DNA from: Candidatus Kaiserbacteria bacterium RIFCSPHIGHO2_02_FULL_55_25
GTDB taxonomy: Bacteria; Patescibacteriota; Minisyncoccia; Phycocordibacterales; UBA2100
Length of the DNA: 64,000 nucleotides
Reading direction: 5' to 3'
Assembly: GCA_001781335.1 (NCBI GenBank)
Contig: MFLL01000001.1
Coordinates: 25,626-89,625, forward strand
Below are positions 1,859-50,167 of the stretch, in pieces. How positions within the stretch are numbered: position 1 is the first letter of the stretch; every line of letters begins with the position of its first letter. Below the pieces are notes generated by a model that did not search any database, was not told the DNA's origin, and saw only the letters and a list, made by a program, of their open reading frames with translations. Position numbers and translations under genes: made by a program.

Positions 1859-4800
1859 ATGAAAAACTACGACCATAAAGGCATAGAGAAGAAATGGCAG
1901 GATTTCTGGACCAAGAACAAGATTTACACGACCCCTGACTCCGCGCCAAAGAAAGATAATTTCTATCTCCTCGTCGAGTTCCCGTACCCCTCTGGCAACC
2001 TCCATGTCGGCCATTGGTACGCCTTTGCGGTGCCGGACATTTTGGCCCGTTATCACCGCATGCAGGGCAAAAATGTCCTCTATCCGATAGGGTTTGATGC
2101 ATTCGGACTCCCTGCGGAAAACGCCGCCATCAAGAACAAGCTCAACCCACGCAAATGGACGGAAGGGAACATCGCGTACATGAAGAAGCAGATTCAGTCG
2201 ATGGGCACATCGTTCGACTGGTCGCGCGAGGTCGTCACGTGCGACCCGTCGTACTACAAATGGACACAGTGGCTCTTCTTACAGCTCTACAAGAGAGGGC
2301 TCGTCTATCAGAAGGAGACGGCGGTCAATTGGTGCCCCAAGGATAAGACGGTGCTCGCCAATGAGCAGGTCGTCGACGGCAAGTGCGAGCGTTGTGATAC
2401 GGAAGTCGAGCAGCGGCAGATGCTCCAGTGGAATATCAAGATTACCGATTATGCCGACCGTCTCATAGAAGACCTCGAGCCGCTCAACTGGCCGGAGCAG
2501 ATAAAAGAATCGCAAAGGAATTGGATAGGCCGCTCAGAGGGTGCGGAGATTGATTTTCCGCTTGAAATGGGCAAAAAATACAAGTTCGTCTACCTGCACG
2601 GGTATAAGAGTAAGGCTGACAGACCCCGCAATCATTGGTACAGGGCAGGTTTGGAGGCGCTTGGACATGAGGTGATAATACCGGACTTGCCGAATTCAAA
2701 TAATCCAGTCGAAGAGGAGCAAGTAAAAATTGCGATTGAGGCTACGGATTACGACGAAAACACTGTTCTTATTGGGCACAGCTTGGGTGCTGTTGTTGCG
2801 ATGAAGGCGCTTCAAAAAATGAACAAAAAGATAGCACGGCTCGTGCTTATTGCGCCTACGATTGACCCTGCGTTTCCGGGCGCTGAAGAGAGACCGTTCC
2901 ACAAAACCTTTAAATGGGACATTGACTATGAATTGCTGAAGAAACTGGCGCCCAATCGGCTTCTTCTTTCTGATCTGAAAGAGCCTGAAGTCAGAATCAA
3001 TTACATTCGCCACCTCGCGCCGAAACTGGATGCGCAACTCGTTGAAACTCACGCAACTCAAGAACACTTTACGGGTGACAAAGAACCAGACGTTCTAATG
3101 TGGTTGCGACCGACAATACGCGTGTTCACGACCCGCTCCGACACGCTCTTCGGTGCAACATACCTCGTGCTTGCGCCCGAACACCAATTTATCAGGCAGT
3201 TCTACACAAGTCAGACTTCCTTGAATAAGGCAGAGGTCCAGCAATATGTCAATACTGCATTGAAGAGGAGCGACCTTGAACGCCAGACTGACCAGAAAAA
3301 TAAAACCGGGGTGAGGCTCGAAGGGGTAAGCGCAATGAATCCTGCTACGGGGGAGAAGGTACCGCTTTATGTGGCGGATTACGTACTCGGGCACTATGGC
3401 ACCGGTGCCATCATGGCCGTGCCCGCGCACGATGAACGCGACCACGAATTCGCGGAGAAGTTCGGGCTTCCCATCAGGGAAGTTGTCGAGCCCCTCGTCG
3501 TTGCCACGAGTGGCTTTGATGCTATTCATCAGGACGAACCGTTCCAGGAGCGCAACAGCATCATTGCCATCGTGAAGCACTGGTCGGAAGACAAATACAT
3601 TTGTCTCGCGTGGAAGCCGGCAGAATGGAAAGGCTTTGTCGTTGGTGGTATCGAAAAGGGTGAAGATGCCATCGCGGCCGGTGTACGCGAGATCGTCGAA
3701 GAGACCGGGTATCAAAAGCCCACGTTCATACGTCAGCTCGGCGGCACCATTCACGACAAGTTCTATCACACGATAAAAAGGGTCAACACGTTCGCTCACT
3801 TCACGCCGCTCTTGTTCCAGTTGGAAGACGGAACACATGTCGACATCGCAGATACCGAGAAAGATTTGCATGACGTACATTGGGTCGATGCCGATAAGGT
3901 CGCGAATTTTGTGAACAGTCGCGACATCAAGGTCGCTTGGGCGCGAGTGAGCGGTAAGAATATATATACAGGGGAGGGGATACTCAGCAATTCAGGAACA
4001 TTCAGCGGATTGATGACGGAAGAAGGCCGTAAGCAGATGGCCGAGAAATTCGGACGCACGAAGAAAATGTACAAGCTGCGTGATTGGATAGTCAGCCGTC
4101 AGCGGTATTGGGGCGTGCCGATTCCGATGATTCACTGCGAGAAATGCGGCATCGTACCGGTGCCCGACAAGGACTTGCCGGTGGAATTGCCGGAGGTAAA
4201 AGATTATTTGCCGGAGGGAAGCGGGAAGTCGCCGCTCGCAAAGGTCAAAAAATTTGTGGACACGGCGTGTCCTAAATGTGGGGGGAAGGCGAAACGGGAA
4301 ACTGACACGCTCGATACATTTGTAGATTCTTCGTGGTACTTCCTGCGCTATACCGACCCCAAGAATCCCAAGGCCTTTGCATCAAAAGCCAAGCAGGCAA
4401 AATGGATGCCTATCAATCTCTACAGCGGGGGAGCGGAGCACACGACGATGCACTTGCTCTACAGCCGCTTCTGGCACAAGGCGCTCTACGACATGGGGCT
4501 TGTTGCCGACGCGGAGCCATACACCCGCCGCATGAACAGAAGCATTATTCTCGGTCCCGACGGACAAAAGATGAGTAAGTCGCACGGCAACGTAATCGAC
4601 CCCGACGAGGTGGTGGCGCGACTCGGTGCCGACACGGTACGCATGTATTTGGCCTTCGTAGGGCCGTATAACGAGGTTTCCAGCTTCCCATGGAATCCCG
4701 ACGGTGTGGTGGGTGTGAGGCGTTTTCTGGAGCGCGTATGGCGCCTGCAGGAGAAAGTCGGCACAGAGGATGCCGGCGCACTCTCCTCGGCTCTGCATAA

Positions 4801-5236
4801 GGCAATAAAGAAAGTGGGCGAGGATATTGCGGCGCAAAAGTTCAACACCGCGATAAGTCAGCTCATGATTTTGCTCAATGACATGGAGAAGCGGGAATCA
4901 CTATCGCGTAACGAGTGGACAACATTTCTGCGGTTGCTCGCGCCGTTCGCGCCGCACATGGCGGAAGAATTGTGGAGTAGTGCAGGCAACAAAAAATCCA
5001 TCCACGTCCAGAAGTGGCCGCAGTACGATGAAAAATATCTTGTCGACGAAGAAGTTACGTACGGCATTCAAATCGACGGCAAAACACGCGACGAAGTTCG
5101 CGTACCGACCGATGCCGACAAAGAGACTGTTGAAAAAGCTGCACGCGACGTCGTTGCCGCCCGACTGGAAGGAAAGACTATAAAGCGGACTATTGTCGTG
5201 CCAAAGAGGTTGGTGAATTTTGTACTCGAGACATAA
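1859..5236 (+). CDS. leuS: Leucyl-tRNA synthetase (1125 aa) carrying two inserted foreign domains: an alpha/beta serine hydrolase (nt about 2558-3106) and a NUDIX hydrolase (nt about 3542-3958).
   Basis: Class I HIGH motif (HVGH), the CP1 editing start TTRSDTLFGATY, KMSKS, and the C-terminal anticodon-binding region are all present. The insert between NWIGRSEGAEIDF and IRVFTTR has the YdeN/RBBP9 pattern (xxxHGY..NHW, GHSLG nucleophile elbow). The insert after VPAHDERDHEF..GLPI has a Nudix box GGIEKGEDAIAAGVREIVEETGY. The frame is continuous with no stops. Confidence 0.93.
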   Translation: MKNYDHKGIEKKWQDFWTKNKIYTTPDSAPKKDNFYLLVEFPYPSGNLHVGHWYAFAVPDILARYHRMQGKNVLYPIGFDAFGLPAENAAIKNKLNPRKWTEGNIAYMKKQIQSMGTSFDWSREVVTCDPSYYKWTQWLFLQLYKRGLVYQKETAVNWCPKDKTVLANEQVVDGKCERCDTEVEQRQMLQWNIKITDYADRLIEDLEPLNWPEQIKESQRNWIGRSEGAEIDFPLEMGKKYKFVYLHGYKSKADRPRNHWYRAGLEALGHEVIIPDLPNSNNPVEEEQVKIAIEATDYDENTVLIGHSLGAVVAMKALQKMNKKIARLVLIAPTIDPAFPGAEERPFHKTFKWDIDYELLKKLAPNRLLLSDLKEPEVRINYIRHLAPKLDAQLVETHATQEHFTGDKEPDVLMWLRPTIRVFTTRSDTLFGATYLVLAPEHQFIRQFYTSQTSLNKAEVQQYVNTALKRSDLERQTDQKNKTGVRLEGVSAMNPATGEKVPLYVADYVLGHYGTGAIMAVPAHDERDHEFAEKFGLPIREVVEPLVVATSGFDAIHQDEPFQERNSIIAIVKHWSEDKYICLAWKPAEWKGFVVGGIEKGEDAIAAGVREIVEETGYQKPTFIRQLGGTIHDKFYHTIKRVNTFAHFTPLLFQLEDGTHVDIADTEKDLHDVHWVDADKVANFVNSRDIKVAWARVSGKNIYTGEGILSNSGTFSGLMTEEGRKQMAEKFGRTKKMYKLRDWIVSRQRYWGVPIPMIHCEKCGIVPVPDKDLPVELPEVKDYLPEGSGKSPLAKVKKFVDTACPKCGGKAKRETDTLDTFVDSSWYFLRYTDPKNPKAFASKAKQAKWMPINLYSGGAEHTTMHLLYSRFWHKALYDMGLVADAEPYTRRMNRSIILGPDGQKMSKSHGNVIDPDEVVARLGADTVRMYLAFVGPYNEVSSFPWNPDGVVGVRRFLERVWRLQEKVGTEDAGALSSALHKAIKKVGEDIAAQKFNTAISQLMILLNDMEKRESLSRNEWTTFLRLLAPFAPHMAEELWSSAGNKKSIHVQKWPQYDEKYLVDEEVTYGIQIDGKTRDEVRVPTDADKETVEKAARDVVAARLEGKTIKRTIVVPKRLVNFVLET

Positions 5237-9542: not shown

Positions 9543-10289
9543 TATAGAGGCGACGCCTCGATATACGTGAATTTTACAGCGGAAGGTCGGCATAATATTC
9601 GGCGGCCCCGATAAGTGTGTCCCGTAGCGCAGGGCGTTTTTCGAACATGGACATGGCATCAGCGTCGAGGATCGAGTTCTCCGGCCTCTTTGCCCCTTCG
9701 TAATCCGGCAGGCTACTGTATCGATATGTTTTGAGCTTTTGTTCCAATGATCCTATGTTCCTTACATATCCCGATTTCCATTCTCGCTCGAATAGTTCAG
9801 CAGGATTGAGATGAATGTATTGCACGACATACTGCAGGTACGCATCGTCATCGATGCGTTTGGAACGAAATGGTTTGATAAATACGTTTCCAACATGCTG
9901 TCGCTTCACATTGAAGTACATACTGAAGCTCGTTCCAAGTTTTTGCATGAATGTACTGATTCCTCCGTCGGTAATCTCTTGCAGTAGCAGATGAAAGTGG
10001 TTGGGCATGAGGCAGTACGCACCAATGGAGACCAATGGATTGCCACGCGGCAGGGAAAGAAGGCGTTCGTGCGACGGGCTGTACATAGCTCCACGGCGAA
10101 TTGTACGATTGCCATTGCAAATGTAGAGCGCCTGCAAAAAACGTTCGTAATCCTGCTCGGTCTCGAACACCACATTTTTGTCGATACTGCGGGTATAGCA
10201 GTGGTACCACTCATTGAAAGCGAATTCTTCTCTGCGATATGCCATTTGGGTATAGTATCACCCAATATATAGAGGCGTCGCCTTGATAT
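9543..10289. mobile_element. IS200/IS605-like or RAYT-like element 1, bounded by inverted GC-stem hairpins at 9543-9564 and 10268-10289.
   Basis: The hairpins tatagaggcgacgcctcgatat and tatagaggcgtcgccttgatat are mutual reverse complements and each is near-palindromic. They enclose a single HUH Y1 gene. Confidence 0.7.
9574..10245 (-). CDS. tnpA: HUH-superfamily Y1 transposase-like protein (IS200/IS605 TnpA or RAYT-like), paralog 1.
   Basis: It carries the YCLMPNHFHLLL (HuH) motif and a downstream catalytic-Tyr region YVVQYIHLNP. It is paralogous to the ORFs at 36615-37319 and 56689-57381. Confidence 0.8.
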   Translation of the reverse strand: MAYRREEFAFNEWYHCYTRSIDKNVVFETEQDYERFLQALYICNGNRTIRRGAMYSPSHERLLSLPRGNPLVSIGAYCLMPNHFHLLLQEITDGGISTFMQKLGTSFSMYFNVKRQHVGNVFIKPFRSKRIDDDAYLQYVVQYIHLNPAELFEREWKSGYVRNIGSLEQKLKTYRYSSLPDYEGAKRPENSILDADAMSMFEKRPALRDTLIGAAEYYADLPL

Positions 10290-14842: not shown

Positions 14843-16099
14843 TTACGGCAAATAATTCACCGGATTGACATAGCCGTTGAACGGCGACACAGGCACTTTG
14901 ACGCTCTTGCCATTGTTGCATTTGTAATTAATGAAGCTCACCGCGGAGGAGACGTATACGGTGAAGTGAAGGTGCGGGCCGGTCGCATAGCCGGTATTGC
15001 CGCTGTATCCGATTAACTGACCGGTGGACACGCTTTGACCTTGGACTACATTGACTCCGGAGAGATGTGCGTACAGTGTCGTGAGTCCGTTGTTGTGCCT
15101 GATGAGAACCCATTTTCCATATTGACAGTTTGGTGCGGTTCCCAGGTTGGTTTCCTGTACCACACCATCAAGCGCGGCATACGTGGGAGTGCCGATGCTC
15201 GCCCGCATATCAATGCCGTTGTGACCCTTGCCTTTGTATGCTGCCGTCCGCGCAAACGCCGTGTCGCCGAAATATTGCGTTACGTGCACAGAGGTCAGTG
15301 GCCATCGCAGGACACCTTTCCCCTGCGACGGTATGGAGGAAATGTCGGCCGACTGCAGCTTGGCCTGCAGTTCCCGCAACGTGTCTTCAAAATCCTGTTT
15401 TGCGGCAACTTTCTCCGCGATAATCTTCTGATAGTTGCTTTCCTGATTTTTGGTCTGCGCAAGGAGGTCGCTTTGCGCTTTTTTTGTCGCATTGAGCGAA
15501 CCCTGCTGGGTGGTGAGTGTGCGCTGTTGGGCAAGTAATTGCGCGCGTTTCGCTTCCGCAGTGGTTTTATTGCTCGTCAGTGTCTGCTTATCCGCGGCGA
15601 GCCGGACGATGGTCGCCTGCATGGCGCCTTGCAGCGCTGCAATCGAGTCGATGTCCTGCCACAGATCCGAAATCGTCCCGGCCGCAAGAAGAGTGATGGA
15701 GAGCGGCGTTTGTTCGATGGCGTCAAGACTGCGGAGCGATTCGGCAAGCCCCGCCCGTTCATCGTCTATGGTGGCTTGCTTCGTGGCGATGCCTTGCGAA
15801 AGTTGCTGAATCTGGAGTTGCGTCGTGTTTATCTGGCTTTTTGTAACAGTAATCTTTGCGGTCAACTGTTTGTTTTGGAGGGTTAATTGGTTAACCGTGT
15901 TTTGCAAGGTGCTTTTTTGCTTCGTGGTGGAGTCGAGCTGTGCCTGATAATTGGCAATCTCGTTATCGAGTTGCTGTATCTGTGCGTTGTTGTCGTCTAT
16001 CTGTTTTTGCAGCTCGTCGGCGGTTTGTGCCGCGGCGGGCGCCGGAAGAATGGTAAAAACACAAACTAGCGCGAGTACTGACAACTTCCCCGTTCTCAT
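14843..16099 (-). CDS. M23 family metallopeptidase with an N-terminal signal peptide and a long coiled coil (EnvC-like murein hydrolase activator or endopeptidase).
   Basis: A signal peptide MRTGKLSVLALVCVF is followed by Q/L-rich heptad repeats. The C-terminus has HNGIDMRA and GNTGYATGPHLHFTVY. The start overlaps the gltX stop in an ATGA arrangement. Confidence 0.85.
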   Translation of the reverse strand: MRTGKLSVLALVCVFTILPAPAAAQTADELQKQIDDNNAQIQQLDNEIANYQAQLDSTTKQKSTLQNTVNQLTLQNKQLTAKITVTKSQINTTQLQIQQLSQGIATKQATIDDERAGLAESLRSLDAIEQTPLSITLLAAGTISDLWQDIDSIAALQGAMQATIVRLAADKQTLTSNKTTAEAKRAQLLAQQRTLTTQQGSLNATKKAQSDLLAQTKNQESNYQKIIAEKVAAKQDFEDTLRELQAKLQSADISSIPSQGKGVLRWPLTSVHVTQYFGDTAFARTAAYKGKGHNGIDMRASIGTPTYAALDGVVQETNLGTAPNCQYGKWVLIRHNNGLTTLYAHLSGVNVVQGQSVSTGQLIGYSGNTGYATGPHLHFTVYVSSAVSFINYKCNNGKSVKVPVSPFNGYVNPVNYLP

Positions 16100-17403
16100 A
16101 GAAGTCCTGCAGCCTTGGTGATGCGTTGAAGCGTGCGCTCTTTGCCGATGAGAGACGCAATGACGAACGGGTCGGGGGATTTCTCGCGGCCGGAAAGCGC
16201 GACACGCAGGGGCCAAAGCACAGCCCCTCTTCCCTCTTCTGTGGCATACGGGAAAATTACGTTTTTTATTTCTTCAGACGTGAACTGTTCGCCGGACAAT
16301 CCTTCCAGCAATTTTGCGACAGCCGTCAAATGCTGCTTCGCGGCAGGCGCATCAGTTTTTGCCCCCTTGATGAGTAATGCGGGTTCATACGAGATATCCT
16401 GCGACATAAATTGAAACTCACCGTTTTTAATGAGTTCGGCGGCTTCTCCGAATGTCCGTGCACGCTCTTTGATGAGAGCGACCGGGAGTTCACCCAAGTC
16501 GGTACCGGCGAACTCTTGATACCGGCGCGCGTATTCATCGTCGGAAAGTGTCCGCAAGTGCTCGTGATTTATCCAAAGCATTTTTTCCAGATCAAACACC
16601 GCGCCGTGTTTGTGAACACGCTCGATGGTAAATGCTTTGATGAGCTCTTTGAACGTAAAAATCTCCTGCTCGGTCCCCGGATTCCAGCCGAGAAGCGCCA
16701 AATAGTTCACGAACGCCTCCGGCAGGAAACCCTGCAAGCGGTATTCGTTGACTGACACGGCCCCGTGCCTCTTGGAAAGTTTCGAGCGGTCGGGCGCGAG
16801 GATGAGTGGTATGTGGGCGTAAATAGGTCTCCCGTAACCGAGCGCTTCGAGAATGAGGATTTGCCGCGGCGTATTGGAAATGTGGTCCTCGCCGCGAATG
16901 ACGTGCGTAACGCCCATTTCATGGTCATCTACGACGACCGCGAGATGGTAGAGCGGAGCGTCGACTGATTTTGCTATGACAAAATCTTTCAAATCGGTAG
17001 TATCGAACGAAACTTCACCGCGTATGAGGTCGGTAAACGTCACACGCGTATTCGGATTCTTGAATCGTATGACCTTTTTGTCCGGATTGTCCGTCGTTGC
17101 CTCCGCTTCGTATGCGTGGCCGCTCTTCAGCAGTGTCTGTATGCAGTCGCTGTACACATCCGTACGCTCCGATTGTTTTGTGATTGCTTTTGCGTCGTAC
17201 GGAATTCCGAGCCACGTGAGGCCGTCCAAAATATCCTGCTCAAATTCGTCCTTGTTGCGTTCCTTGTCGGTGTCTTCGAAACGCAGGCGCATCTCGCCGC
17301 CCGCATGTGCGGCAAACAGGTAGTTGAACAATGCGGTGCGCGCACTCCCGATGTGGAAGTATCCTGTAGGTGATGGCGGAAATCTCGTAACTACTTTCGT
17401 CAT
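16096..17403 (-). CDS. gltX: Glutamyl-tRNA synthetase (short, 435 aa).
   Basis: HIGS, TGYFHIGSARTA and KLSKRHG motifs are present. Confidence 0.92.
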   Translation of the reverse strand: MTKVVTRFPPSPTGYFHIGSARTALFNYLFAAHAGGEMRLRFEDTDKERNKDEFEQDILDGLTWLGIPYDAKAITKQSERTDVYSDCIQTLLKSGHAYEAEATTDNPDKKVIRFKNPNTRVTFTDLIRGEVSFDTTDLKDFVIAKSVDAPLYHLAVVVDDHEMGVTHVIRGEDHISNTPRQILILEALGYGRPIYAHIPLILAPDRSKLSKRHGAVSVNEYRLQGFLPEAFVNYLALLGWNPGTEQEIFTFKELIKAFTIERVHKHGAVFDLEKMLWINHEHLRTLSDDEYARRYQEFAGTDLGELPVALIKERARTFGEAAELIKNGEFQFMSQDISYEPALLIKGAKTDAPAAKQHLTAVAKLLEGLSGEQFTSEEIKNVIFPYATEEGRGAVLWPLRVALSGREKSPDPFVIASLIGKERTLQRITKAAGLL

Positions 17404-23602: not shown

Positions 23603-24328
23603 TTATGTGCCGTAGCGGGGTGCCGCGAGCGAGTCGTTCTCGATGGTGATGTCTTCGAATAGCCGTTCCTGCGTCACACTCGCGGAGCCTGCGCGCACTA
23701 GCTCCAGCATGGCGAGAAAATACACAATAACCTCGTGGCGGTCTTTACTCTTCGTCAACTCGCTGAAGCGTGCCTTGAAAGCATTGGCAAGCCTTTCTTT
23801 AAGACGCACAATGACGTCCTCGAGCGCCAGCACCGGCGCTACGGCCGCCTGCATCATTGCTTCCGGCTTGGGCAAAATGTTCATCAGGCGTATCGCCGCT
23901 TCCGCAATAGTCTGAATCGTCGCTTCGGCTGGAGAGAAGACGGCCGCGCGCGCCGGAGCGCGGTACGGGAACAGGAGTGGCGCTCTCCCCCACTCTTTGC
24001 GCAAAAGCCGCGATGCCTTGCGGATGATTTGCAGGCGCGCAAGCCGGCGCTCGAGCTCCAACACTGAATCGCGCTCGTCTTCGGAAAGGTCCATGGTGGG
24101 GAGAAGCGCGCGCGACTTGATAAGCAGGAGAGTGGAGGCGACGAGTATGAATTGTGCGGTCTCCCCGAGAGGAAGTTCGGGTAATTTTTCCACATACGCG
24201 AGATATGCGTCCGCCACATCCGCAAGCGAGATGTCCGAAATGGACATTCTGCGCTCCTCAATGAGGTTCAGCAGTGTCTCGAGAGGGCCCTGAAACGTGC
24301 CCGTAGCGATGTTAAATTTGCCCGTCAT
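23603..24328 (-). CDS. scpA: Segregation and condensation protein A.
   Basis: ScpA/kleisin-like sequence placed immediately upstream of scpB. Confidence 0.85.
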   Translation of the reverse strand: MTGKFNIATGTFQGPLETLLNLIEERRMSISDISLADVADAYLAYVEKLPELPLGETAQFILVASTLLLIKSRALLPTMDLSEDERDSVLELERRLARLQIIRKASRLLRKEWGRAPLLFPYRAPARAAVFSPAEATIQTIAEAAIRLMNILPKPEAMMQAAVAPVLALEDVIVRLKERLANAFKARFSELTKSKDRHEVIVYFLAMLELVRAGSASVTQERLFEDITIENDSLAAPRYGT

Positions 24329-25656
24329 GACTCGAATTCCGGAGCTTCCGAAAGGCGTGAATCAATGCGCGTCATGTCGCGCGGGAATGCGGTCGCCTCC
24401 TTAACGTTCGGTATTTCAAGCATGCGTGCAGTAAATCGTTCAAGTCCTGTTGAGGAACCGCCGTGCGGCGGCATGCCGTACCTGAAGGCTTGAAGATAAA
24501 AAACAAATTTCGCGGGATCGAATCCTCTTTCCTTCATTCGTGCGACGAGAGTGTCGTGATCATGTATGCGTTGTGCGCCACTGTTGATTTCAAGACCGCG
24601 GAAAAGCAAATCAAAACCCCTTGAATACGGTGATTCGGACGGGTCCTCATAGGTGTAGAACGCCCGCTTTTTCGTGGGATAGCGAGTAATAAAAATAAAG
24701 TCGGAACCCTTTTCCTTCTTAGACCACTCGCAAATCTGCCGCTCATTCTCCGGCTCCATATCCGGTTCGTGAGGAACACCCAGTATGTCTTGTGCCTCAC
24801 GCAATGTAAGTATCGGGATTTCATCGGGCACGAGCGGAACGGACGTATGGAATCGTTCGAATATGTCTGCGTGTTTTTCTGCAACAAATTTGACAGTGTC
24901 TTTGATGGTTTTCTCAAGCACGCGCATCGGTTCTTTTTCGTTCTCAATGAAACCCATCTCGAAATCCATGCACGTGGCTTCGCTCAAGTGTCTTGTGGTA
25001 GCGCTCCTCTCCGCGCGAAATATCTTTGCCACAGTGAACGCTCTTTCGAACGGGCCAACCATGATTTGTTTGTAAAATTGAGGACTCGTTGCAAGATAGG
25101 CCGTCTTGTCGTTGAAGTAATCGACCTTGAATACGGCCGAGCCGCCTTCTGCATCGCCACCGACAAGCGCTGGGGCCACGAATTCCGTAAACCCCTGCAA
25201 TTTCAAGGATGTCCGGTATGCATCAAGTATTGAAGATTGCATATGAAAGATGTCTCGGCTTCGCTGTGTTTTAAGCGTCAGTGGCAAATTGTCCAGATGT
25301 GTCTCAAGATGTAGGTCGGCACCAAGTTCAAAGGGCAGTGTCGCGGCCGCTCCGAGCACCTCTACCCTCTCTATCTGCAATTCTATGTCGCCGTTCTGCT
25401 TCCCCTCTTGGACGTTCTTTTCAGGTCGCTTGTTCACCAGCCCTGTAACTGCAACGGCCGACTCGACGCGCACGTCTTTGGCCGTCTCGATTGCCGCACT
25501 TTTAGGTAATACGACACCCTGCACGCTTCCCGTCATATCGCGGAAATCAAAAAATACCATCTTGCCTTGGTCGCGACGCACTGATACCCATCCCATAATC
25601 GTAACGCTCTCGCCGACATGCTGACTCAAATCTCCGATGTATGTGCGTTTTTCCAT
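24325..25656 (-). CDS. aspS: Archaeal-type aspartyl-tRNA synthetase (Asx type, probably non-discriminating).
   Basis: An N-terminal OB fold is followed by class II motifs, including the flipping-loop TSPQFYKQ and FRAERSATTRHLSE. The 443-aa length fits the archaeal-type AspRS/AsnRS clade. Confidence 0.8.
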   Translation of the reverse strand: MEKRTYIGDLSQHVGESVTIMGWVSVRRDQGKMVFFDFRDMTGSVQGVVLPKSAAIETAKDVRVESAVAVTGLVNKRPEKNVQEGKQNGDIELQIERVEVLGAAATLPFELGADLHLETHLDNLPLTLKTQRSRDIFHMQSSILDAYRTSLKLQGFTEFVAPALVGGDAEGGSAVFKVDYFNDKTAYLATSPQFYKQIMVGPFERAFTVAKIFRAERSATTRHLSEATCMDFEMGFIENEKEPMRVLEKTIKDTVKFVAEKHADIFERFHTSVPLVPDEIPILTLREAQDILGVPHEPDMEPENERQICEWSKKEKGSDFIFITRYPTKKRAFYTYEDPSESPYSRGFDLLFRGLEINSGAQRIHDHDTLVARMKERGFDPAKFVFYLQAFRYGMPPHGGSSTGLERFTARMLEIPNVKEATAFPRDMTRIDSRLSEAPEFES

Positions 25657-42503: not shown

Positions 42504-43913
42504 TTATTTGGCTTCGGGGGCCACTACGTCAATCTTGATGGCGGCAGGGTCGGTCGGGAACGTGCTTTTCCAGAATGGTTCGATGCGTGCGTGCGCCTCT
42601 TGCACGCCGGAGAACTGGGTGACTATAGTCTGAAACGCGCCTTGGTCCTTGCCTGCAAGAGCCTGCTGTAGAGCCGCGGAATCGATATTCCACACGAGCT
42701 GCGCCGAGCCGGCAAGCGCGAACTGCAATGGGTCGACACCGAAAGTCGACGAAGCGTTCGCTGCGCGTGCGACGAAGCCGCTTCCCGGAGTGAATGTTAT
42801 AGAAGCACCGTTCGCATCGGCATACACCGTTTGTGCAAGCGCATCAGCCGGAAAAACCGGGGCGACAACATGGGCACTTTGATGTATGCGTACGCCGCCG
42901 CCGGCCTCGGGAGTGGAAGGTTCGTCCTTGTATGTAATCTGCACGAGGTCGGGGAACACTACCGTGCCGGCGGCGGCGGCAACAGAGCCACGCGCCTTGC
43001 TTTCAAGTCGGGTGCGTACCGCGCTCACGGCGGTCTGCATTGCAGCAGGCGCGACACCCGGCTTATCTCCGACGAATCCCCCGCTCATGGCGGACGTTGA
43101 CTTCCCGTAGATATGCGGATAAATGGCGGCCGACGTCTTGAGGCCGGGCACGGTGAATTTGCCTGCGGCCACATTATATTGCTCGCCTGGTTGATCGGCG
43201 ATAACCGTCACGCTCACCTGACCCGGCGTCGTGCCCTTCTTTCCCGGAATGACGATATCCGCAGGTGTACGGAATATCAGCCCGCTCTCCGATTGGAAGC
43301 GCGTGTTCTTGATGAGTTTGAACGAGGTCGTCTGATAGTCGTTGTATACCGTGATGATGCCACTCGCCTTGTCTTCGGAATGGACCGTGCCCTGACTCTC
43401 GACGACTTCAGAGTCAGCGAGGTCTACGGTCTGCACAGTGTACGAGAGTGTGCCGCTGGCGGCCGTCGCCGCCGGATACGCCGTAAACCGCGAAGACTCA
43501 TCAAAAGTCGCCGTGTGAGAGCGCGGCGTGACCGTAATCGTGGTCGAGCGCATCGCGACAAGCAACAAAATACCGAGCACGATGACGCATACACCGGCCA
43601 GAGCCCAAATCCACCAACCCGCCAATGCGCTTTTGCGGGGCGGCACTCCGGAAGTCTCTTGATACTCGCGCATGTCGTTCATTGCAGGACGTGAGCGGGG
43701 GCGTTGCGGCATTGAAATGTTGCGGATGGAGCGCTCACCCTCGGCCGGAGGAGGCGGTATTGGGCGGACCGGATTTGCATTAATCGGGACAGGGCGGGAG
43801 TCATCGGACTCGGGCATTTCCGCCGGAGCAGGAGAGGCAGAGGGAGCGCTCTTGCGCGGCTCATTTCCATCCGGAGGCAAGATATCCTGAAAATAATCTT
43901 TGGCCATGTTCAA
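42504..43913 (-). CDS. Hypothetical membrane-anchored protein with a Pro-rich N-terminal tail (469 aa).
   Basis: A Pro/Ser-rich cytoplasmic N-terminus, one TM helix (WWIWALAGVCVIVLGILLLV), and a large extracytoplasmic domain. No family recognised. Confidence 0.5.
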   Translation of the reverse strand: MNMAKDYFQDILPPDGNEPRKSAPSASPAPAEMPESDDSRPVPINANPVRPIPPPPAEGERSIRNISMPQRPRSRPAMNDMREYQETSGVPPRKSALAGWWIWALAGVCVIVLGILLLVAMRSTTITVTPRSHTATFDESSRFTAYPAATAASGTLSYTVQTVDLADSEVVESQGTVHSEDKASGIITVYNDYQTTSFKLIKNTRFQSESGLIFRTPADIVIPGKKGTTPGQVSVTVIADQPGEQYNVAAGKFTVPGLKTSAAIYPHIYGKSTSAMSGGFVGDKPGVAPAAMQTAVSAVRTRLESKARGSVAAAAGTVVFPDLVQITYKDEPSTPEAGGGVRIHQSAHVVAPVFPADALAQTVYADANGASITFTPGSGFVARAANASSTFGVDPLQFALAGSAQLVWNIDSAALQQALAGKDQGAFQTIVTQFSGVQEAHARIEPFWKSTFPTDPAAIKIDVVAPEAK

Positions 43914-43945: not shown

Positions 43946-45091
43946 TTACTCCTGTGACTCGATGTTGACAAGTGCGGAGGCGACGGCAAGCGAATCGTCC
44001 GCGACCTCTCCCGATATCCAGCGGTCCATGTGAATCGAGGACGGGGTGCACACGATGAACGGGAGCGTCGTCACGGTGAATTGCGAGAAATCGATACGGG
44101 AAAAAAGCCGCCCGAGCCACGGCTCAAGGTCCGGATGCGTCACCAGGAGCATGTCGTTTGCCGCACGGCGGGTCGCGGCCATTTGTCCGATGGGGCCGGC
44201 AAATATCCGGACGAGTTCCGGTTCGACAAGCGCAAGCGCTTTTTGTACCGCTTCGCACGCTTCCGTCGAACATGCGTCGCGCTCTAGCATCCGCAGTGAA
44301 GTGAGTACGTCCTCGGGTAATTTCCCGCCGGCAATGCGCGAAAGTATCGTGCGCACTCCCTCCGGCACAACACGCTGCTCGAATGCCGCACCGCGTACCG
44401 AGACGATGTGAGTAGTATCAACACCCATGTCGACAATGAGGTAGTGCTTGCCGGGAATCGCACTCTCACGCGCAAGCATCATCAGCGCGCGGATGCCGGA
44501 ACGCCACGCCGGTTTCGCGACCGGAAATACTTGGGCAACACCCTCTGCGATAGCGCTACGAACGGCCGGTTCGCATTCGCTCACCAGAGACACGGCGTTT
44601 ATCTCGTGCGCGCGCTTGCCCGCCGGTTGTCCGGTCGAATAGCCGTTGAGCTGTACGCGCAGAACAGTTGCTTCGAGAAGTTTGGCTCTATCGAGGTCCG
44701 GCGCGCCCGCAAGCGCTCCCTGTGCCAGTTTCGACACCATTGAATCGTGAATGACTTCGTCGCGACCGTACTCTTCGCCGGAACGGATGCTCCGTGTCGT
44801 CGCCCAAGGGGCATGAACCGTGACGTAAACCTCCGTTATCGGAGAACGGTGCCCGTCTTTCGCATATGCATCGAGCGCTTCTTTGCCGGCTTCTTGTATC
44901 TGCCCGCCAATCTGCGCGGTTGCTTGCTTGAATGTCCGTTCTTCGAGCGTGAGCTTGGAGTGACCAGTCGCAATGACATTCGCCGGCGAATGCCCGGACA
45001 CAGAGAGCACCGCTACCGACGCACTGCCGGGGCTTACATCGACAACCGCGACCGCACGCTCGCGGCCGCCTGTAAGGTGCATGTTGACCAT
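43946..45091 (-). CDS. Actin-like ATPase-fold protein (FtsA/PilM/ASKHA-like) of unknown function.
   Basis: It has phosphate-1-like VAVVDVSPGS and adenosine/phosphate-2-like IVDMGVDTTHI motifs. The start is placed at the MVNMHL Met. Confidence 0.5.
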   Translation of the reverse strand: MVNMHLTGGRERAVAVVDVSPGSASVAVLSVSGHSPANVIATGHSKLTLEERTFKQATAQIGGQIQEAGKEALDAYAKDGHRSPITEVYVTVHAPWATTRSIRSGEEYGRDEVIHDSMVSKLAQGALAGAPDLDRAKLLEATVLRVQLNGYSTGQPAGKRAHEINAVSLVSECEPAVRSAIAEGVAQVFPVAKPAWRSGIRALMMLARESAIPGKHYLIVDMGVDTTHIVSVRGAAFEQRVVPEGVRTILSRIAGGKLPEDVLTSLRMLERDACSTEACEAVQKALALVEPELVRIFAGPIGQMAATRRAANDMLLVTHPDLEPWLGRLFSRIDFSQFTVTTLPFIVCTPSSIHMDRWISGEVADDSLAVASALVNIESQE

Positions 45092-45156
45092 TGTGTTCAG
45101 TATATCGCGCCGTGAGACGACGCTGCGGGTTTTGCCCGCGCACATGTGCAAAAGAA

Positions 45157-47094: not shown

Positions 47095-47589
47095 CTATAT
47101 ACCACGACCATCGGCTGCCATGCGAATCAGGAGCGGAGAATCAACTTGATTGTAAAACTTGAGTGTCGAGACGTGCTCCAGCGGTATCCACTGCGCCTCG
47201 CGCATATACGCCTTCTCGCCCTCGTTCAATCCCTGCGTCTTGAGTTCGCCTTCAACGCCTTTGCAGGTGAAATACATAAGGACGGAGTGGAAATGCCGAT
47301 CGCCGTTGGGGTGAGTGAAAAAGTGGTCCGCCACATGCAAAAGTTTGCCGCGTTGTACGGTGAGTCCTGTTTCCTGCTTGACCTCCCGCGCAAAAGTTTC
47401 GTCCATCGTCTCACCCATGTGGATGCCGCCGCCGGGGAAATCCCATCCGTCCCACTGACTGGAGAGCAGTACTTCACTGTCTTTGATTATCACGGCGAAA
47501 ACGGACGGGCGGAATGTGAGCTGCTCCACGGGCACTTCCGTCTTTTCGCCGTTGATACCGGTGCAGGTGACTGTCTTTTTCTCGGTCAT
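47095..47589 (-). CDS. NUDIX hydrolase.
   Basis: Nudix box GGGIHMGETMDETFAREVKQETGL. Confidence 0.8.
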   Translation of the reverse strand: MTEKKTVTCTGINGEKTEVPVEQLTFRPSVFAVIIKDSEVLLSSQWDGWDFPGGGIHMGETMDETFAREVKQETGLTVQRGKLLHVADHFFTHPNGDRHFHSVLMYFTCKGVEGELKTQGLNEGEKAYMREAQWIPLEHVSTLKFYNQVDSPLLIRMAADGRGI

Positions 47590-49003: not shown

Positions 49004-50167
49004 CTACGATTGGACCGGCTTACAGTACGCCGCCTGCACCCGCTGATACAAGAGCCGAGGCGTATAGCCGACGGGTCTGAGCCCTTGGATTGGAGCTACG
49101 CTACATTGCAACTGCTCCAGTCTGTCGGGTGTCCGCCACGCCATGAACGCGTCAAGTGCTTTCCGCCACCAATCACCGACATTTTCGAAGAAGGTGGCAA
49201 CGTCAGCAACCACAGCAACGATCGCCACGATGAACACCACCGTAGTGAAGTAGGCGACGACATAGTTCAGGAAGTTGAAGTCGTAGTCATTCTTCGCCAG
49301 GACGATTGTTGCAATGCCGAGCAGAATGACGTGAGGAAGCGGAGCAAGTAGTACAGCTCCGTTTTCGCCCACGGCGCGCTCCGTGCCGTCAGTCCTTCGC
49401 CCAATCCACGAGGTTTTGTTCTTCTTATGGTGCCACACTTCCACGAAGCTTTGAGTGAATGGGTGGACGATTGCCCCCCAGTCACACCGTAGCCCGCACA
49501 ACACGCCGTAAAACATCGCGGTGCCGAACCGGAACAGTGTCATCAGCACGAGCCATATTGCAACCGCCGTTGGTTGCAATAGAGGGAAGTACGCTATGAA
49601 CCGGCGCCGACGGATGGAGCAGGAGTTCTTCGCGTACGTCGGGAACAGCAAGTTGATCCACCATTCTTCGCGGGACGAGAGCACAGGAGCGAAAAAGTCT
49701 GCGGATACATTGATGGTCCGCTCGGCGAGGCCGAAACGCCTCAGTCCCATTGCGTGGCGACGTTTGTCGGTATGCCCGCCAACGAGGTCGTTCAGCGAGT
49801 AACGATATTGCCCGTATTGTCCGTCGAGCAACCACGATCGAATTTTCTTCGCTCGATGTTGTTTGCTCCAGACGACGCTGGCGCAGATCGTGTGCGTACC
49901 GCTCGCGTGGAACTGAATGAGCTCACGCTGGCTCGTAAGGTCGAAGACGTATCGCACTTCGTGCCCTTCAGGATTTTTAATCGACACCAACACGAGCGCA
50001 TTCTTGATGTCGTTGTCGCGCACAAAATCCAAGAAAGGCTTCGCCACGCACCACTGAAGGTACATGGTAGCGCTTGACGTCGTTTGCGTGTAGTCGTAAA
50101 GGAGCTGGAGCCCGATATTGGGCAATTTCATCTCTCTTCTCACGCGCTTCGATAGAGTCGCTGACAT
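49004..50167 (-). CDS. Hypothetical protein with a cytoplasmic N-domain and C-terminal TM helices (387 aa).
   Basis: Clean ORF. No family recognised. Confidence 0.5.
   Translation of the reverse strand: MSATLSKRVRREMKLPNIGLQLLYDYTQTTSSATMYLQWCVAKPFLDFVRDNDIKNALVLVSIKNPEGHEVRYVFDLTSQRELIQFHASGTHTICASVVWSKQHRAKKIRSWLLDGQYGQYRYSLNDLVGGHTDKRRHAMGLRRFGLAERTINVSADFFAPVLSSREEWWINLLFPTYAKNSCSIRRRRFIAYFPLLQPTAVAIWLVLMTLFRFGTAMFYGVLCGLRCDWGAIVHPFTQSFVEVWHHKKNKTSWIGRRTDGTERAVGENGAVLLAPLPHVILLGIATIVLAKNDYDFNFLNYVVAYFTTVVFIVAIVAVVADVATFFENVGDWWRKALDAFMAWRTPDRLEQLQCSVAPIQGLRPVGYTPRLLYQRVQAAYCKPVQS

What the first reader, a model, noticed from the sequence alone, without database searches (positions are those of the whole stretch)
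1859..5236. LeuRS with two foreign catalytic domains spliced into one 1125-aa open frame
The first insert (nt about 2558-3106) replaces the roughly 10-residue linker between the catalytic core and the CP1 editing domain. It is about 185 residues and carries the full YdeN/RBBP9 hydrolase pattern, including HGY, NHW and the nucleophile elbow GHSLG. The second insert (nt about 3542-3958) follows CP1, after VPAHDERDHEF...GLPI. It carries a canonical Nudix box, GGIEKGEDAIAAGVREIVEETGY, within a complete Nudix fold. The LeuRS motifs HVGH, TTRSDTLFGATY and KMSKS stay in frame on either side of both inserts, and the roughly 300 extra residues account for the length excess over typical bacterial LeuRS. 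This follows from comparison with the well-known domain order of bacterial LeuRS. Whether the inserts are active is inference. Nudix enzymes cleave Ap4A-type products made by aaRSs, and an extra serine hydrolase could be a second deacylase, so both inserts could plausibly act on aminoacylation by-products. A separate Nudix gene also sits beside alaS.
Basis: partly seen in the sequence, partly recalled or inferred. Interest (0 to 1): 0.85.

Follow-up and report, generated by a model that had tools for sequence, protein, structure and literature searches.

The report
LeuRS with nested hydrolase and Nudix
This is a real leucyl-tRNA synthetase from an uncultured candidate-phyla-radiation (CPR) bacterium, likely Kaiserbacteria, with two apparently active enzymes (a serine hydrolase and a Nudix pyrophosphatase) built into loops of its proofreading domain; over 100 related sequences share the layout, no paper describes it, and related LeuRSs carry many other small enzymes at the same spots.

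Summary
ORF 1859-5236 (+) encodes an 1125-aa bacterial-type LeuRS (TIGR00396, 978 bits) with intact HVGH, KMSKS and CP1 editing motifs.

Two complete foreign domains sit inside CP1 loops:
- Residues 241-419 are a YdeN/RBBP9-family serine hydrolase ("H"; Ser308, Asp372 or Glu375, His403).
- Residues 545-701 are a Nudix hydrolase ("N") with a canonical Nudix box.

It is not a misassembly. Eight independent species-level MAGs and more than 100 protein clusters, mostly Candidatus Kaiserbacteria/Paceibacterota, share the same layout in the same syntenic locus. An alignment-based AlphaFold model gives both inserts pLDDT around 90-97.

New context: among the 150 nearest LeuRS cluster representatives, the same H and N subfamilies occur at five or more different positions each. 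At least ten other Pfam families (Ham1, HAD, GNAT, nucleotidyltransferase, DUF559, IS200-like and others) occupy the same loops. Catalytic residues of H and N are kept at every site, and CP1 editing residues stay intact.

Function is inferred, not shown. The favoured reading is an extra aminoacyl-bond hydrolase plus an ApnA-type pyrophosphatase acting beside the editing site. The main rival is unrelated passenger enzymes in permissive loops.

I found no literature description. I rate it a new variant of a known kind.

The parts
1859..5236 (+). leuS: 1125-aa bacterial-type leucyl-tRNA synthetase carrying two nested domains (end includes the stop codon)
   Evidence: ORF list. TIGR00396 978.6 bits against a cutoff of 548.4. 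Aligns end to end with T. thermophilus LeuRS 1h3n in four blocks. Foldseek best hits are LeuRS structures 2bte, 5omw and 4aq7, TM normalised by target 0.77-0.82.
1859..2578 (+). LeuRS catalytic core, N-terminal part (aa 1-240), with HVGH (aa 49-52), the Zn-binding CxxC...CxxC region and the first CP1 strand
   Evidence: Aligns to Tth LeuRS residues 1-240. HVGH is invariant in 9 of 9 orthologs.
2579..3115 (+). Insert 1 ('H', aa 241-419): YdeN/RBBP9-family alpha/beta serine hydrolase. Nucleophile Ser308 in GHSLG, acid Asp372 or Glu375, His403
   Evidence: PF06821 37.9 bits and PF12697 37.7 bits. A 9-sequence profile hits YdeN 1uxo at E 1e-13 and RBBP9 at E 3e-11. Ser308 and His403 are invariant in 116 of 116, Asp372 in 114 of 116, and position 375 is acidic in 116 of 116. 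pLDDT is 91-97, and the triad residues follow predicted strands 302-307, 366-372 and 393-397, the canonical positions.
3116..3490 (+). CP1 editing domain, main part (aa 420-544), with the T-rich motif TTRSDT (424-429) and the universal Asp in AHDERD (523-528)
   Evidence: Aligns to Tth 243-363. PF13603 matches. The editing residues are conserved in all architecture classes.
3491..3961 (+). Insert 2 ('N', aa 545-701): Nudix hydrolase with the canonical box G596-x5-E602-x7-R610-E611-U-x-E614-E615-x-G-Y618 and an aromatic X-loop at F635/Y636
   Evidence: PF00293 44.7 bits. Profile hits include MutT/Nudix 3smd at 6e-8 and Ap4A hydrolases 1f3y and 3i7u at about 1e-7. R610, E611, E614 and E615 are at least 90% conserved (counts). 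pLDDT is 89-96, and the box lies on the predicted helix 604-616.
3962..5233 (+). Rest of CP1, catalytic core C-terminal half with KMSKS (aa 904-908), anticodon-binding and C-terminal domains. The leucine-specific domain is replaced by a short 'GPDG' linker
   Evidence: Aligns to Tth 376-579 and 637-876 with nothing matching Tth 580-636. PF08264 Anticodon_1 matches. Compare the GKDG linker of M. mobile LeuRS (PMC3643597).
47095..47589 (-). Free-standing Nudix gene (164 aa from the ATG at 47589) whose stop codon abuts the alaS start. Related context, not part of leuS
   Evidence: PF00293 75.9 bits. The sequence reads TAG then ATG. Only distantly related to N: 28% identity over 76 aa, and A2 profile E 2.6e-8. 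The adjacency to alaS is conserved in 9 of 10 metagenome loci.

Best explanation
The gene is the single housekeeping LeuRS at this locus in a Patescibacteria/CPR bacterium, most likely Candidatus Kaiserbacteria (Paceibacterota). Its CP1 editing domain carries two nested, catalytically competent enzymes.

Shown:
- The synthetic site (HVGH, KMSKS) and the canonical CP1 editing site (TTRxDT, HDxRD) are intact.
- H is a YdeN/RBBP9-type Ser-Asp/Glu-His hydrolase inserted in the hairpin about 5 residues upstream of the T-rich editing motif.
- N is a canonical Nudix pyrophosphohydrolase inserted about 17 residues after the editing-site Asp.
- Both are predicted as autonomous, well-folded lobes.
- The layout is inherited in a conserved syntenic locus across many genomes.

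Inferred:
- H hydrolyses an aminoacyl bond. The likely substrate is a mis-acylated or otherwise aberrant aminoacyl ester at the tRNA 3' end, or an aminoacyl-adenylate, giving a second clearing activity beside CP1.
- N hydrolyses a nucleoside-diphosphate-X compound made at or near the synthetase. The best guess is a dinucleoside polyphosphate (ApnA) or a related adenylated by-product.
- On this reading the protein is a LeuRS with two extra built-in clean-up activities.

My estimates for the separate steps: real, inherited architecture about 0.97; both inserts enzymatically active about 0.75; their substrates linked to LeuRS chemistry about 0.4.
For: Architecture:
- The ORF and its motifs are present, with HMM scores above cutoffs.
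- The inserts map exactly against 1h3n.
- Eight species-level MAGs carry both inserts at the same two sites within conserved YchF-DUF5671-leuS-cysS-CorA-S41 synteny.
- More than 100 clusters at 90% identity share 60-73% identity and the same Pfam set.
- The AF2 model has mean pLDDT 87.8, and the inserts are among its best-predicted parts.

Activity:
- Ser308 and His403 are invariant in 116 of 116, Asp372 in 114 of 116, and position 375 is acidic in 116 of 116.
- The triad residues follow the predicted strands in the canonical alpha/beta-hydrolase positions.
- The nucleophile Ser is kept in 44 of 44 H modules and the Nudix REUxEE glutamates in about 74 of 74 N modules, wherever they are inserted.

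Coupling to LeuRS:
- The same two specific subfamilies were inserted into LeuRS at five or more different sites each, sometimes in 2-3 copies. They cluster mostly by site at about 30% identity between sites, which indicates repeated old acquisitions.
- The four other aaRS genes in the window have no nested domains.
[quoted passage not shown] Ile and Met are among the amino acids LeuRS is known to misactivate (my own knowledge).
- The N X-loop is aromatic at +17/+18, with no ADP-ribose Pro and no NADH motif. The marker rule is given in PMC5389931.
- Ap4A hydrolases are among the best PDB hits of the N profile.
- A separate Nudix is conserved immediately upstream of alaS in relatives.
- CP1 editing residues stay intact in every architecture class, so the inserts add to CP1 editing and do not replace it.
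Against: - No biochemical data exist for any member.
- In related LeuRSs the same two loops carry many unrelated domains: Ham1, HAD, two GNAT types, a nucleotidyltransferase, DUF559, an IS200-like Y1 transposase fold, PD-(D/E)XK and ASCH. The loops therefore accept almost anything.
- N is dispensable or replaceable over short evolutionary distances. Syntenic orthologs with 79-81% core identity lack it, with no N-type Nudix within 6 kb in the one such locus with DNA available (L019). P0156, at 84.5% core identity, carries a Nudix only 32% identical.
- The residue that anchors the free alpha-amine in RBBP9 (Glu108) aligns with a conserved Arg/Lys in H (109 of 116), so RBBP9 specificity cannot simply be transferred.
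- The Nudix subfamily assignment is weak. E-values are about 1e-7 against several functionally different Nudix enzymes, and the best NCBIfam hit is RppH, far below its cutoff.
- I could not obtain model coordinates, so the distances between the insert active sites and the CP1 pocket or the tRNA path are not measured.
Confidence: 0.45

Rival explanations
1. Passenger (nested-gene) model. The CP1 surface loops and a few other LeuRS loops are structurally permissive landing sites. In these streamlined genomes, small stand-alone enzymes such as the house-cleaning types Nudix, Ham1 and HAD, along with esterases and GNATs, became embedded in the large, constitutively expressed leuS gene. On this model H and N are active but work on cellular substrates unrelated to leucylation, and the fusion only provides co-expression and stability.
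For: - At least ten unrelated Pfam families occupy the same sites in related LeuRSs. They include domains with no plausible link to aminoacylation: DUF559 endonuclease, IS200-like Y1_Tnp and PD-(D/E)XK.
- Insertions are seen at roughly 10 internal positions plus the C-terminus.
- Presence or absence of N varies among syntenic orthologs at about 80% core identity.
- N has been swapped for a divergent copy in P0156.
- CP1 editing residues are unchanged whichever insert is present.
Against: - The same two specific subfamilies recur at many sites and in several copies within LeuRS in particular.
- Generic Nudix proteins from the same genomes score far worse against the N profile: 1e-5 to 1e-9, against 1e-13 to 1e-65 for N modules.
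- CysRS, GluRS, the Asp/AsnRS-type enzyme and AlaRS in the same window carry no passengers.
- A Nudix-aaRS association also exists in trans at alaS.
Confidence: 0.35
2. Target-tethered immunity model. The inserted enzymes detoxify aminoacyl-adenylate-mimicking LeuRS inhibitors at the target itself. On this model H cleaves the aminoacyl-nucleotide bond as MccF does, the GNAT inserts in other lineages acetylate the alpha-amine as MccE2 does, and the Nudix, Ham1 and HAD inserts degrade the nucleotide moiety.
For: - The commonest insert families are a serine hydrolase, GNATs, a nucleotidyltransferase of the aminoglycoside-resistance type, and nucleotide pyrophosphatases or phosphatases. These overlap the enzyme classes that give immunity to microcin C-type aminoacyl-nucleotides: the GNAT MccE2, the serine peptidase MccF and the HIT hydrolase MccH (PMC8323819).
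- LeuRS is a known natural-product target. TM84 from agrocin 84 is a leucyl-adenylate mimic (PMC8323819; Foldseek hit 3zgz).
Against: - H belongs to the YdeN/RBBP9 family, not the S66 MccF family.
- No inhibitor is known in these habitats.
- PADLOC shows no defence-system link.
- The nuclease and transposase-like inserts do not fit this model.
- Nothing in the neighbourhood suggests a biosynthetic or immunity cluster.
Confidence: 0.1
3. Non-catalytic scaffold model. The inserts are degenerate folds retained for tRNA binding, oligomerisation or partner docking, not for catalysis.
For: Nudix and alpha/beta-hydrolase folds are known to be reused as binding modules. Non-enzymatic Nudix functions are listed in PMC5389931.
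Against: Catalytic residues are almost perfectly conserved across more than 100 sequences and at all insertion sites. That would be unexpected for pure scaffolds.
Confidence: 0.06
4. Artefact or removable element. On this reading the extra segments are an assembly chimera, or an intein-like or mobile insertion that is spliced out.
For: - There is a slight GC dip (0.46 against about 0.53-0.56) over the H-coding segment.
- One relative carries an IS200-like domain at site 1.
Against: - The same in-frame junctions appear in 8 independent species-level genomes and more than 100 protein clusters from different projects.
- The identical protein is recorded on another contig (P0154).
- No Hint or intein domain hit appears, and the junctions lack intein splice residues.
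- The junction sequences themselves are conserved ('...EPDVLMWLRPTIRVFTTR...').
Confidence: 0.01

Closest known systems
Bacterial leucyl-tRNA synthetase (T. thermophilus 1h3n/2bte; E. coli 4aq7/4arc)
   Same: Same domain order and catalytic motifs. It aligns over aa 1-240, 420-544, 702-899 and 904-1123. The overall fold matches with TM 0.77-0.82 normalised by target. The CP1 T-rich motif and the conserved Asp are present.
   Different: It carries a 179-aa hydrolase where Tth has 2 residues and a 157-aa Nudix where Tth has 12. It lacks the leucine-specific domain. No solved LeuRS covers the inserts (TM normalised by query about 0.6).
YdeN (B. subtilis, 1uxo) and RBBP9 (human, 2qs9/7oex), Pfam PF06821 Ser_hydrolase
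   Same: These are the best solved relatives of insert 1 (E 1e-13 and 3e-11). They are of similar size, about 180-190 aa. They share the GxSxG nucleophile elbow and the spacing of Ser, acid and His. RBBP9 removes single hydrophobic amino acids that have a free alpha-amine (PMC8866121).
   Different: YdeN and RBBP9 are free-standing proteins, whereas H is nested inside another enzyme. RBBP9's amine-anchoring Glu108 aligns with a conserved Arg/Lys in H, so the substrate probably differs. YdeN itself has no established substrate, as far as I know.
Nudix hydrolases of the ApnA-hydrolase / RppH type
   Same: N has the full Nudix box. Its X-loop is aromatic about 17-18 residues downstream, as in ApnA hydrolases (PMC5389931). 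Ap4A hydrolases 1f3y and 3i7u and RppH models are among the top hits.
   Different: All scores are far below any equivalog cutoff. N forms its own LeuRS-embedded subfamily, which recognises N modules at other LeuRS sites at 1e-13 to 1e-65 but recognises free Nudix proteins only at 1e-5 to 1e-9. The substrate is unknown.
Other aaRSs with an added enzymatic domain, e.g. NCBIfam NF040702 'isoleucine--tRNA ligase, N-acetyltransferase domain-containing'
   Same: This is a precedent for a bacterial class Ia synthetase carrying a small-molecule-modifying enzyme domain. The model appears in the hit list. GNAT inserts also occur in related LeuRSs.
   Different: The synthetase, the inserted domain and the insertion site all differ. 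I did not examine that family further.
Mycoplasma mobile LeuRS (3ziu), a minimal LeuRS
   Same: It lacks the leucine-specific domain, which is replaced by a tetrapeptide: GKDG there (PMC3643597) and GPDG here.
   Different: M. mobile LeuRS also lacks CP1 entirely. This protein keeps CP1 and enlarges it.

Membership tests
Bacterial-type LeuRS (TIGR00396 leuS_bact) | Whole-protein HMM score above the curated equivalog cutoff | tested here: met
   978.6 bits against a cutoff of 548.4.
Bacterial-type LeuRS (TIGR00396 leuS_bact) | Class I signature motifs HIGH and KMSKS | tested here: met
   HVGH at aa 49-52 and KMSKS at aa 904-908, conserved in orthologs.
Bacterial-type LeuRS (TIGR00396 leuS_bact) | CP1 editing domain with the T-rich motif and the conserved Asp | tested here: met
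   TTRSDT at 424-429 and AHDERD at 523-528. PF13603 scores 181 bits.
Bacterial-type LeuRS (TIGR00396 leuS_bact) | Leucine-specific domain before KMSKS (present in most but not all LeuRSs) | tested here: not met
   Nothing aligns to Tth 580-636, and the sequence reads 'ILGPDGQKMSKS'. This is not a disqualifying feature, since M. mobile LeuRS also lacks it (PMC3643597).
Bacterial-type LeuRS (TIGR00396 leuS_bact) | Leucylation of tRNA(Leu) and hydrolysis of mischarged tRNA(Leu) | not testable with these tools
   Needs biochemistry.
YdeN/RBBP9 serine hydrolases (Pfam PF06821) | HMM score above the gathering threshold | tested here: met
   37.9 bits against 22 for the isolated insert, and 32.9 bits in the whole protein.
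YdeN/RBBP9 serine hydrolases (Pfam PF06821) | Closest solved relatives are members of the family | tested here: met
   The profile of 9 orthologous inserts hits YdeN 1uxo at 9.9e-14 and RBBP9 at 3e-11. The next hit is at 2.6e-4.
YdeN/RBBP9 serine hydrolases (Pfam PF06821) | Ser-Asp-His triad with the Ser in a GxSxG elbow | tested here: met
   GHSLG Ser308 and His403 are present in 116 of 116. The acid is Asp372 (114 of 116) or Asp/Glu375 (116 of 116); which of the two it is remains unresolved. Both follow predicted strands in the canonical positions.
YdeN/RBBP9 serine hydrolases (Pfam PF06821) | Alpha/beta-hydrolase fold confirmed by a structure comparison of the domain alone | tested here: inconclusive
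YdeN/RBBP9 serine hydrolases (Pfam PF06821) | RBBP9-like recognition of a free alpha-amine (Glu108) | tested here: not met
   The aligned position is Arg/Lys in 109 of 116 sequences. The loop alignment is of modest reliability.
Nudix hydrolases (Pfam PF00293) | HMM score above the gathering threshold | tested here: met
   44.7 bits against 21.1 for the isolated insert.
Nudix hydrolases (Pfam PF00293) | Nudix box GX5EX7REUXEEXGU | tested here: met
   G596...E602...R610 E611 I V E614 E615 T G Y618. Among 109 Nudix-bearing orthologs the counts are E602 103, R610 106, E611 109, E614 108 and E615 109.
Nudix hydrolases (Pfam PF00293) | Box located on a loop-helix-loop within an alpha/beta/alpha sandwich | tested here: met
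   The predicted helix 604-616 carries the REUxEE residues and is flanked by beta-strands, with pLDDT 89-96. This rests on a predicted model, not a solved structure.
ApnA (diadenosine polyphosphate) hydrolase subgroup of Nudix | Tyr in the X-loop about 16-18 residues after the box; absence of the ADP-ribose Pro and of SQPWPFPQS | tested here: inconclusive
   Positions +17 and +18 are always aromatic (F73/Y36 and Y74/F30), with no Pro at +15/+16 and no NADH motif. The rule comes from PMC5389931. This is a correlate, not proof.
Inteins / self-splicing protein insertions | Hint domain and conserved splice-junction residues | tested here: not met
   No Hint or intein Pfam hit appears. The junctions are 'PLEMG|KKYKF' and 'LRPT|IRVF', with no C-terminal His-Asn and no +1 Cys/Ser/Thr pattern.

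The most novel reading that the evidence does not exclude
In Patescibacteria, LeuRS serves as a modular platform whose CP1 domain, and at least six further positions, repeatedly recruit small hydrolases and transferases that act on aminoacyl-nucleotide or aminoacyl-tRNA species at the synthetase itself. On this reading H and N are new cis-acting quality-control or immunity modules: a third editing activity, ApnA clearance, or detoxification of leucyl-adenylate-mimicking antibiotics. The decorated CP1 cassette is exchanged between LeuRS lineages as a unit.
Probability: 0.3. Interest if true: 0.85.

Novelty: new variant of a known kind. Interest (0 to 1): 0.66.

Why it matters
Bacterial aminoacyl-tRNA synthetases are usually regarded as architecturally conservative, and accretion of extra domains is regarded mainly as a eukaryotic feature. 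This case differs in several ways:
- A whole clade of uncultured bacteria has a LeuRS whose editing domain hosts two further, apparently active, hydrolases.
- Related LeuRSs host a dozen other enzyme families at the same loops.

If the inserts act on LeuRS substrates or by-products, they would be new cis-acting proofreading or clean-up activities. They would also give a biochemical handle on the orphan YdeN/RBBP9 family.

If they are mere passengers, the case is still useful in three ways:
- It shows domain nesting as a genome-economy strategy in ultra-small bacteria.
- It maps naturally permissive insertion sites in LeuRS that could serve protein engineering.
- It exposes an annotation problem, because these essential synthetases are variously named 'alpha/beta fold hydrolase', 'NUDIX domain-containing protein' or 'hypothetical protein'.

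Tried and rejected
- Single-sequence AlphaFold of the full protein was unusable (mean pLDDT 33.7). The alignment-based run replaced it.
- Word-indexed homolog searches with the isolated inserts found almost nothing: 3 fragments for H and none for N. This reflects a sensitivity limit of that tool, not absence, as later showed.
- Whole-model Foldseek against the PDB returned only LeuRS chains in the 50 rows shown, so it gave no domain-level neighbours for the inserts.
- The AFDB library was unavailable.
- An NJ tree of the 50%-identity representatives was star-like. The parsimony counts of gains and losses were nearly equal to the counts of occurrences, so they are not interpretable. I relied instead on close syntenic orthologs.
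- The test for a degenerate CP1 editing site in insert-bearing proteins was negative. The editing residues are intact in all classes, so 'replacement of editing' is rejected.
- The test for an N-type Nudix encoded in trans near leuS in an H-only relative (L019) was negative within 6 kb. A fission/fusion origin is neither supported nor excluded.
- PADLOC showed no defence-system affiliation.
- Rfam and tRNA scans of the window were empty.
- Seven literature searches found no description of a LeuRS with a Nudix or alpha/beta-hydrolase insert. The Nudix-clan review PMC5389931 does not mention tRNA synthetases.
- The misassembly and intein explanations are rejected, as set out under the rival explanations.

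Full report
**1. The observation**

Window positions 1859-5236 (+) hold one uninterrupted ORF of 1125 aa. It is a bacterial-type LeuRS. TIGR00396 scores 978.6 bits against a cutoff of 548.4, and Pfam finds tRNA-synt_1, the LeuRS editing domain PF13603 and Anticodon_1.

The proposed HMM tests succeed:
- The first insert alone scores 37.9 bits on PF06821 Ser_hydrolase (cutoff 22) and 37.7 bits on PF12697.
- The second insert alone scores 44.7 bits on PF00293 NUDIX (cutoff 21.1).

A phmmer alignment to T. thermophilus LeuRS (1h3n) splits the protein into four collinear blocks: query 1-240 with Tth 1-240, 420-544 with 243-363, 702-899 with 376-579, and 904-1123 with 637-876. From this:
- Insert 1 (H) is aa 241-419 (nt 2579-3115) and replaces two residues.
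- Insert 2 (N) is aa 545-701 (nt 3491-3961) and replaces about twelve residues.
- The leucine-specific domain is missing and is replaced by 'GPDG'. This resembles the GKDG linker of Mycoplasma mobile LeuRS (PMC3643597).

Both inserts lie within CP1 loops. H sits about five residues before the T-rich editing motif TTRSDT. N sits about 17 residues after the editing-site Asp528.

**2. It is not an artefact**

A scan of one genome per species with the H sequence returned eight MAGs, all Patescibacteria and mostly Paceibacterota/Parcubacteria. Each has a 1119-1136-aa LeuRS ORF with both inserts at the same two positions; L001 is cut by the contig end. All lie in the same gene order, YchF-DUF5671-leuS-cysS-CorA-S41 peptidase.

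The word-indexed search with the full protein found an identical sequence on another contig (P0154). It also found more than 100 distinct 90% clusters at 60-73% identity with the same Pfam set. Many are from Candidatus Kaiserbacteria, including genomes deposited since the GW2011 series. They are annotated inconsistently as leucyl-tRNA synthetase, alpha/beta fold hydrolase, NUDIX domain-containing protein or hypothetical protein.

There is no Hint or intein signature, and the junction sequences are themselves conserved.

**3. What the inserts are**

*Insert H.* A profile of nine orthologous H inserts hits B. subtilis YdeN (1uxo, E 1e-13) and human RBBP9 (E 3e-11). These are far ahead of any other alpha/beta hydrolase. 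In a 116-sequence alignment:
- Ser308 (in GHSLG) and His403 are invariant.
- Asp372 is D in 114 of 116.
- Position 375, which aligns with RBBP9 Asp138, is Asp or Glu in 116 of 116.

*Insert N.* The N profile hits generic MutT/Nudix proteins and Ap4A hydrolases at about 1e-7. The Nudix box is complete, and its key residues E602, R610, E611, E614 and E615 are each present in 103-109 of 109 Nudix-bearing sequences.

*Structure prediction.* The single-sequence AlphaFold run failed. With the 116-sequence alignment the model reaches mean pLDDT 87.8 and pTM 0.71. The inserts are among the most confident regions, at 91-97 and 89-96. In the model, Ser308, Asp372/Glu375 and His403 follow strands 302-307, 366-372 and 393-397, which are the canonical alpha/beta-hydrolase positions. 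The REUxEE residues lie on helix 604-616. Foldseek matches the whole model to LeuRS structures only, and none of them covers the inserts.

**4. The wider picture**

An exhaustive phmmer search of 1.84 billion cluster representatives shows that close LeuRS relatives range from about 750 to 1344 aa. I measured what sits at the two sites and searched with the H and N profiles. The 150 nearest representatives divide as follows:

| Architecture | Count |
|---|---|
| Neither insert | 37 |
| N only | 36 |
| H only | 25 |
| H and N | 17 |
| Other combinations | 35 |

Aligning everything to an insert-free LeuRS profile shows insertions of at least 50 aa at about ten internal positions, roughly window aa 201, 240, 551, 763, 802, 832, 903, 968, 1012 and 1045, and at the C-terminus.
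- H occurs at aa ~201, 240, 551, 763 and 968.
- N occurs at aa ~201, 240, 551 and 802 and at the C-terminus.
- Some proteins have two or three N copies, for example P0008 and P0139.

Modules group mostly by site and are about 30% identical between sites. This points to several old, separate insertions and not to recent hopping.

Other occupants of the same loops are Ham1/ITPase, HAD, two GNAT types, a second Nudix type, an aminoglycoside-nucleotidyltransferase-like domain, DUF559, an IS200-like Y1 transposase fold, PD-(D/E)XK, ASCH and a 110-125-aa domain with no Pfam match.

Three further observations bear on interpretation:
- The nucleophile Ser is kept in 44 of 44 H modules, and the Nudix glutamates in about 74 of 74 N modules, at all sites.
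- The CP1 editing residues are intact whichever insert is present.
- The four other aaRS genes in this window carry no nested domains.

**5. Dynamics among close relatives**

Syntenic orthologs with 79-81% core identity, such as P0166 and P0234, have H but only a short loop at site 2. In L019, the one such locus with DNA available, no N-type Nudix lies within 6 kb.

P0156 has the highest core identity to the window (84.5%), but its Nudix is only 32% identical.

L003/P0005 is a mosaic. Its synthetase body is closest to a different LeuRS lineage, at 67-71% against 44-54% to the window. Its CP1, H and N are closest to the Kaiserbacteria type, at 65-78%. Its flanking genes are as similar to the window as those of any other locus. 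The decorated CP1 cassette therefore appears to be exchanged as a unit.

**6. Mechanism**

What is shown is the architecture, its inheritance, the conservation of catalytic residues, and the retention of the normal synthetic and editing sites. What the inserts do is inference.

In favour of coupling to LeuRS:
- The same two subfamilies were recruited repeatedly by this one protein.
- According to PMC8866121, RBBP9 forms acyl-enzymes with single Leu/Ile, Met, Phe, Tyr or Trp and cleaves amide, ester or thioester bonds to them. An aminoacyl ester at the tRNA 3' end is chemically such a substrate.
- N has an aromatic pair at +17/+18 of the X-loop, with neither the ADP-ribose Pro nor the NADH motif. 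This is the pattern associated with ApnA hydrolases (PMC5389931).
- A separate Nudix gene is conserved immediately upstream of alaS in 9 of 10 related loci.

Against coupling:
- The loops accept many unrelated domains.
- N is dispensable or replaceable among close relatives.
- RBBP9's amine-anchoring Glu108 aligns with Arg/Lys in H.
- The Nudix subfamily assignment is weak.

My probabilities are about 0.45 for two LeuRS-linked clean-up activities, 0.35 for the passenger-enzyme model, 0.10 for target-tethered immunity against aminoacyl-adenylate mimics (by analogy with MccE2 and MccF; PMC8323819), about 0.06 for non-catalytic scaffolds, and about 0.01 for an artefact or intein.

**7. Novelty**

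The sequences are public, and their automated Pfam annotation already implies the architecture. Even so, seven full-text searches found no paper describing a LeuRS with a nested Nudix or alpha/beta hydrolase. The Nudix-clan review does not mention tRNA synthetases, and a 2026 review of the phylum mentions only rRNA introns and GlyRS recoding.

I classify this as a new variant of a known kind: a LeuRS with an undescribed nested-domain architecture, and one instance of a broader, apparently undescribed pattern of domain nesting in Patescibacteria LeuRS.

**8. Limits**

- I could not access model coordinates, so no distances between active sites were measured.
- The gain/loss tree of 50% representatives was unresolved.

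Noticed in passing
window 47095-47589 (-) and 45157-47094 (-); loci L009-L018: A free-standing 164-aa Nudix gene ends with TAG immediately before the ATG of a short alaS (645 aa; catalytic plus tRNA_SAD domains only). The Nudix-then-alaS order is conserved in 9 of 10 related metagenome contigs, down to 47% Nudix identity. This Nudix is only distantly related to the LeuRS insert (28% over 76 aa).
   Followed up: partly
locus L003 5284-8640 (+) and protein P0005: This LeuRS is a mosaic. Its synthetase body is closest to a different LeuRS lineage (P0037/P0046 type, 67-71% identity, against 44-54% to the window). Its CP1, hydrolase and Nudix are closest to the Kaiserbacteria type (65-78%), and its flanking genes are ordinary orthologs. 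This suggests recombination that swaps either the decorated CP1 cassette or the synthetase body.
   Followed up: partly
protein P0156, site 2: This is the closest full-length relative by core identity (84.5%), yet its Nudix is only 32% identical to the window's and 56% identical to that of L003. The Nudix module seems to have been replaced without disturbing the rest of the gene.
   Followed up: partly
proteins P0008, P0139, P0022, P0066, P0054, P0079: Some related LeuRSs carry two or three copies of the same Nudix subfamily. These include tandem pairs at the site near window aa 201 together with a copy at site 2. Copies within one protein are 20-46% identical to each other.
   Followed up: partly
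proteins P0009, P0087, P0094, P0096, P0109, P0119, P0141: A 110-125-aa domain with no significant Pfam match recurs at site 1 or site 2 of seven LeuRS cluster representatives. Its identity is unknown.
   Followed up: no
window 9574-10245 (-); protein P0124 site 1: The window has a 223-aa ORF with a weak IS200-like Y1 transposase match (28.9 bits). The same fold is found nested in frame at LeuRS site 1 in another lineage (57 bits).
   Followed up: no
window 4559-4582 (aa ~901-908): The leucine-specific domain is absent. The sequence reads 'ILGPDGQKMSKS', which resembles the GKDG tetrapeptide that substitutes for this domain in Mycoplasma mobile LeuRS (PMC3643597).
   Followed up: partly
window 2551-3000: GC content dips to about 0.46 over the hydrolase-coding segment, against about 0.53-0.56 in the rest of leuS. 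The cause could be composition, since the segment is rich in Lys, Glu, Ile and Asn, or a foreign origin.
   Followed up: no
window 1-64000: No tRNA genes and no Rfam family at gathering score were found in 64 kb, although the window contains at least five aaRS genes (leuS, cysS, gltX-like 16096-17403, an Asp/AsnRS-type gene 24325-25656, and alaS). Several ORFs of 387-472 aa have no Pfam match (42504-43913, 43946-45151, 49004-50167, 59086-60504).
   Followed up: no
protein clusters P0157, P0164, P0174, P0188, P0206, P0216, P0242: Public annotation of these essential synthetases is inconsistent. The same architecture is named 'alpha/beta fold hydrolase', 'NUDIX domain-containing protein', 'hypothetical protein', 'class I tRNA ligase family protein' or 'leucyl-tRNA synthetase'. 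Three of the MAGs are labelled Saccharibacteria, although their loci match the Paceibacterota ones.
   Followed up: no
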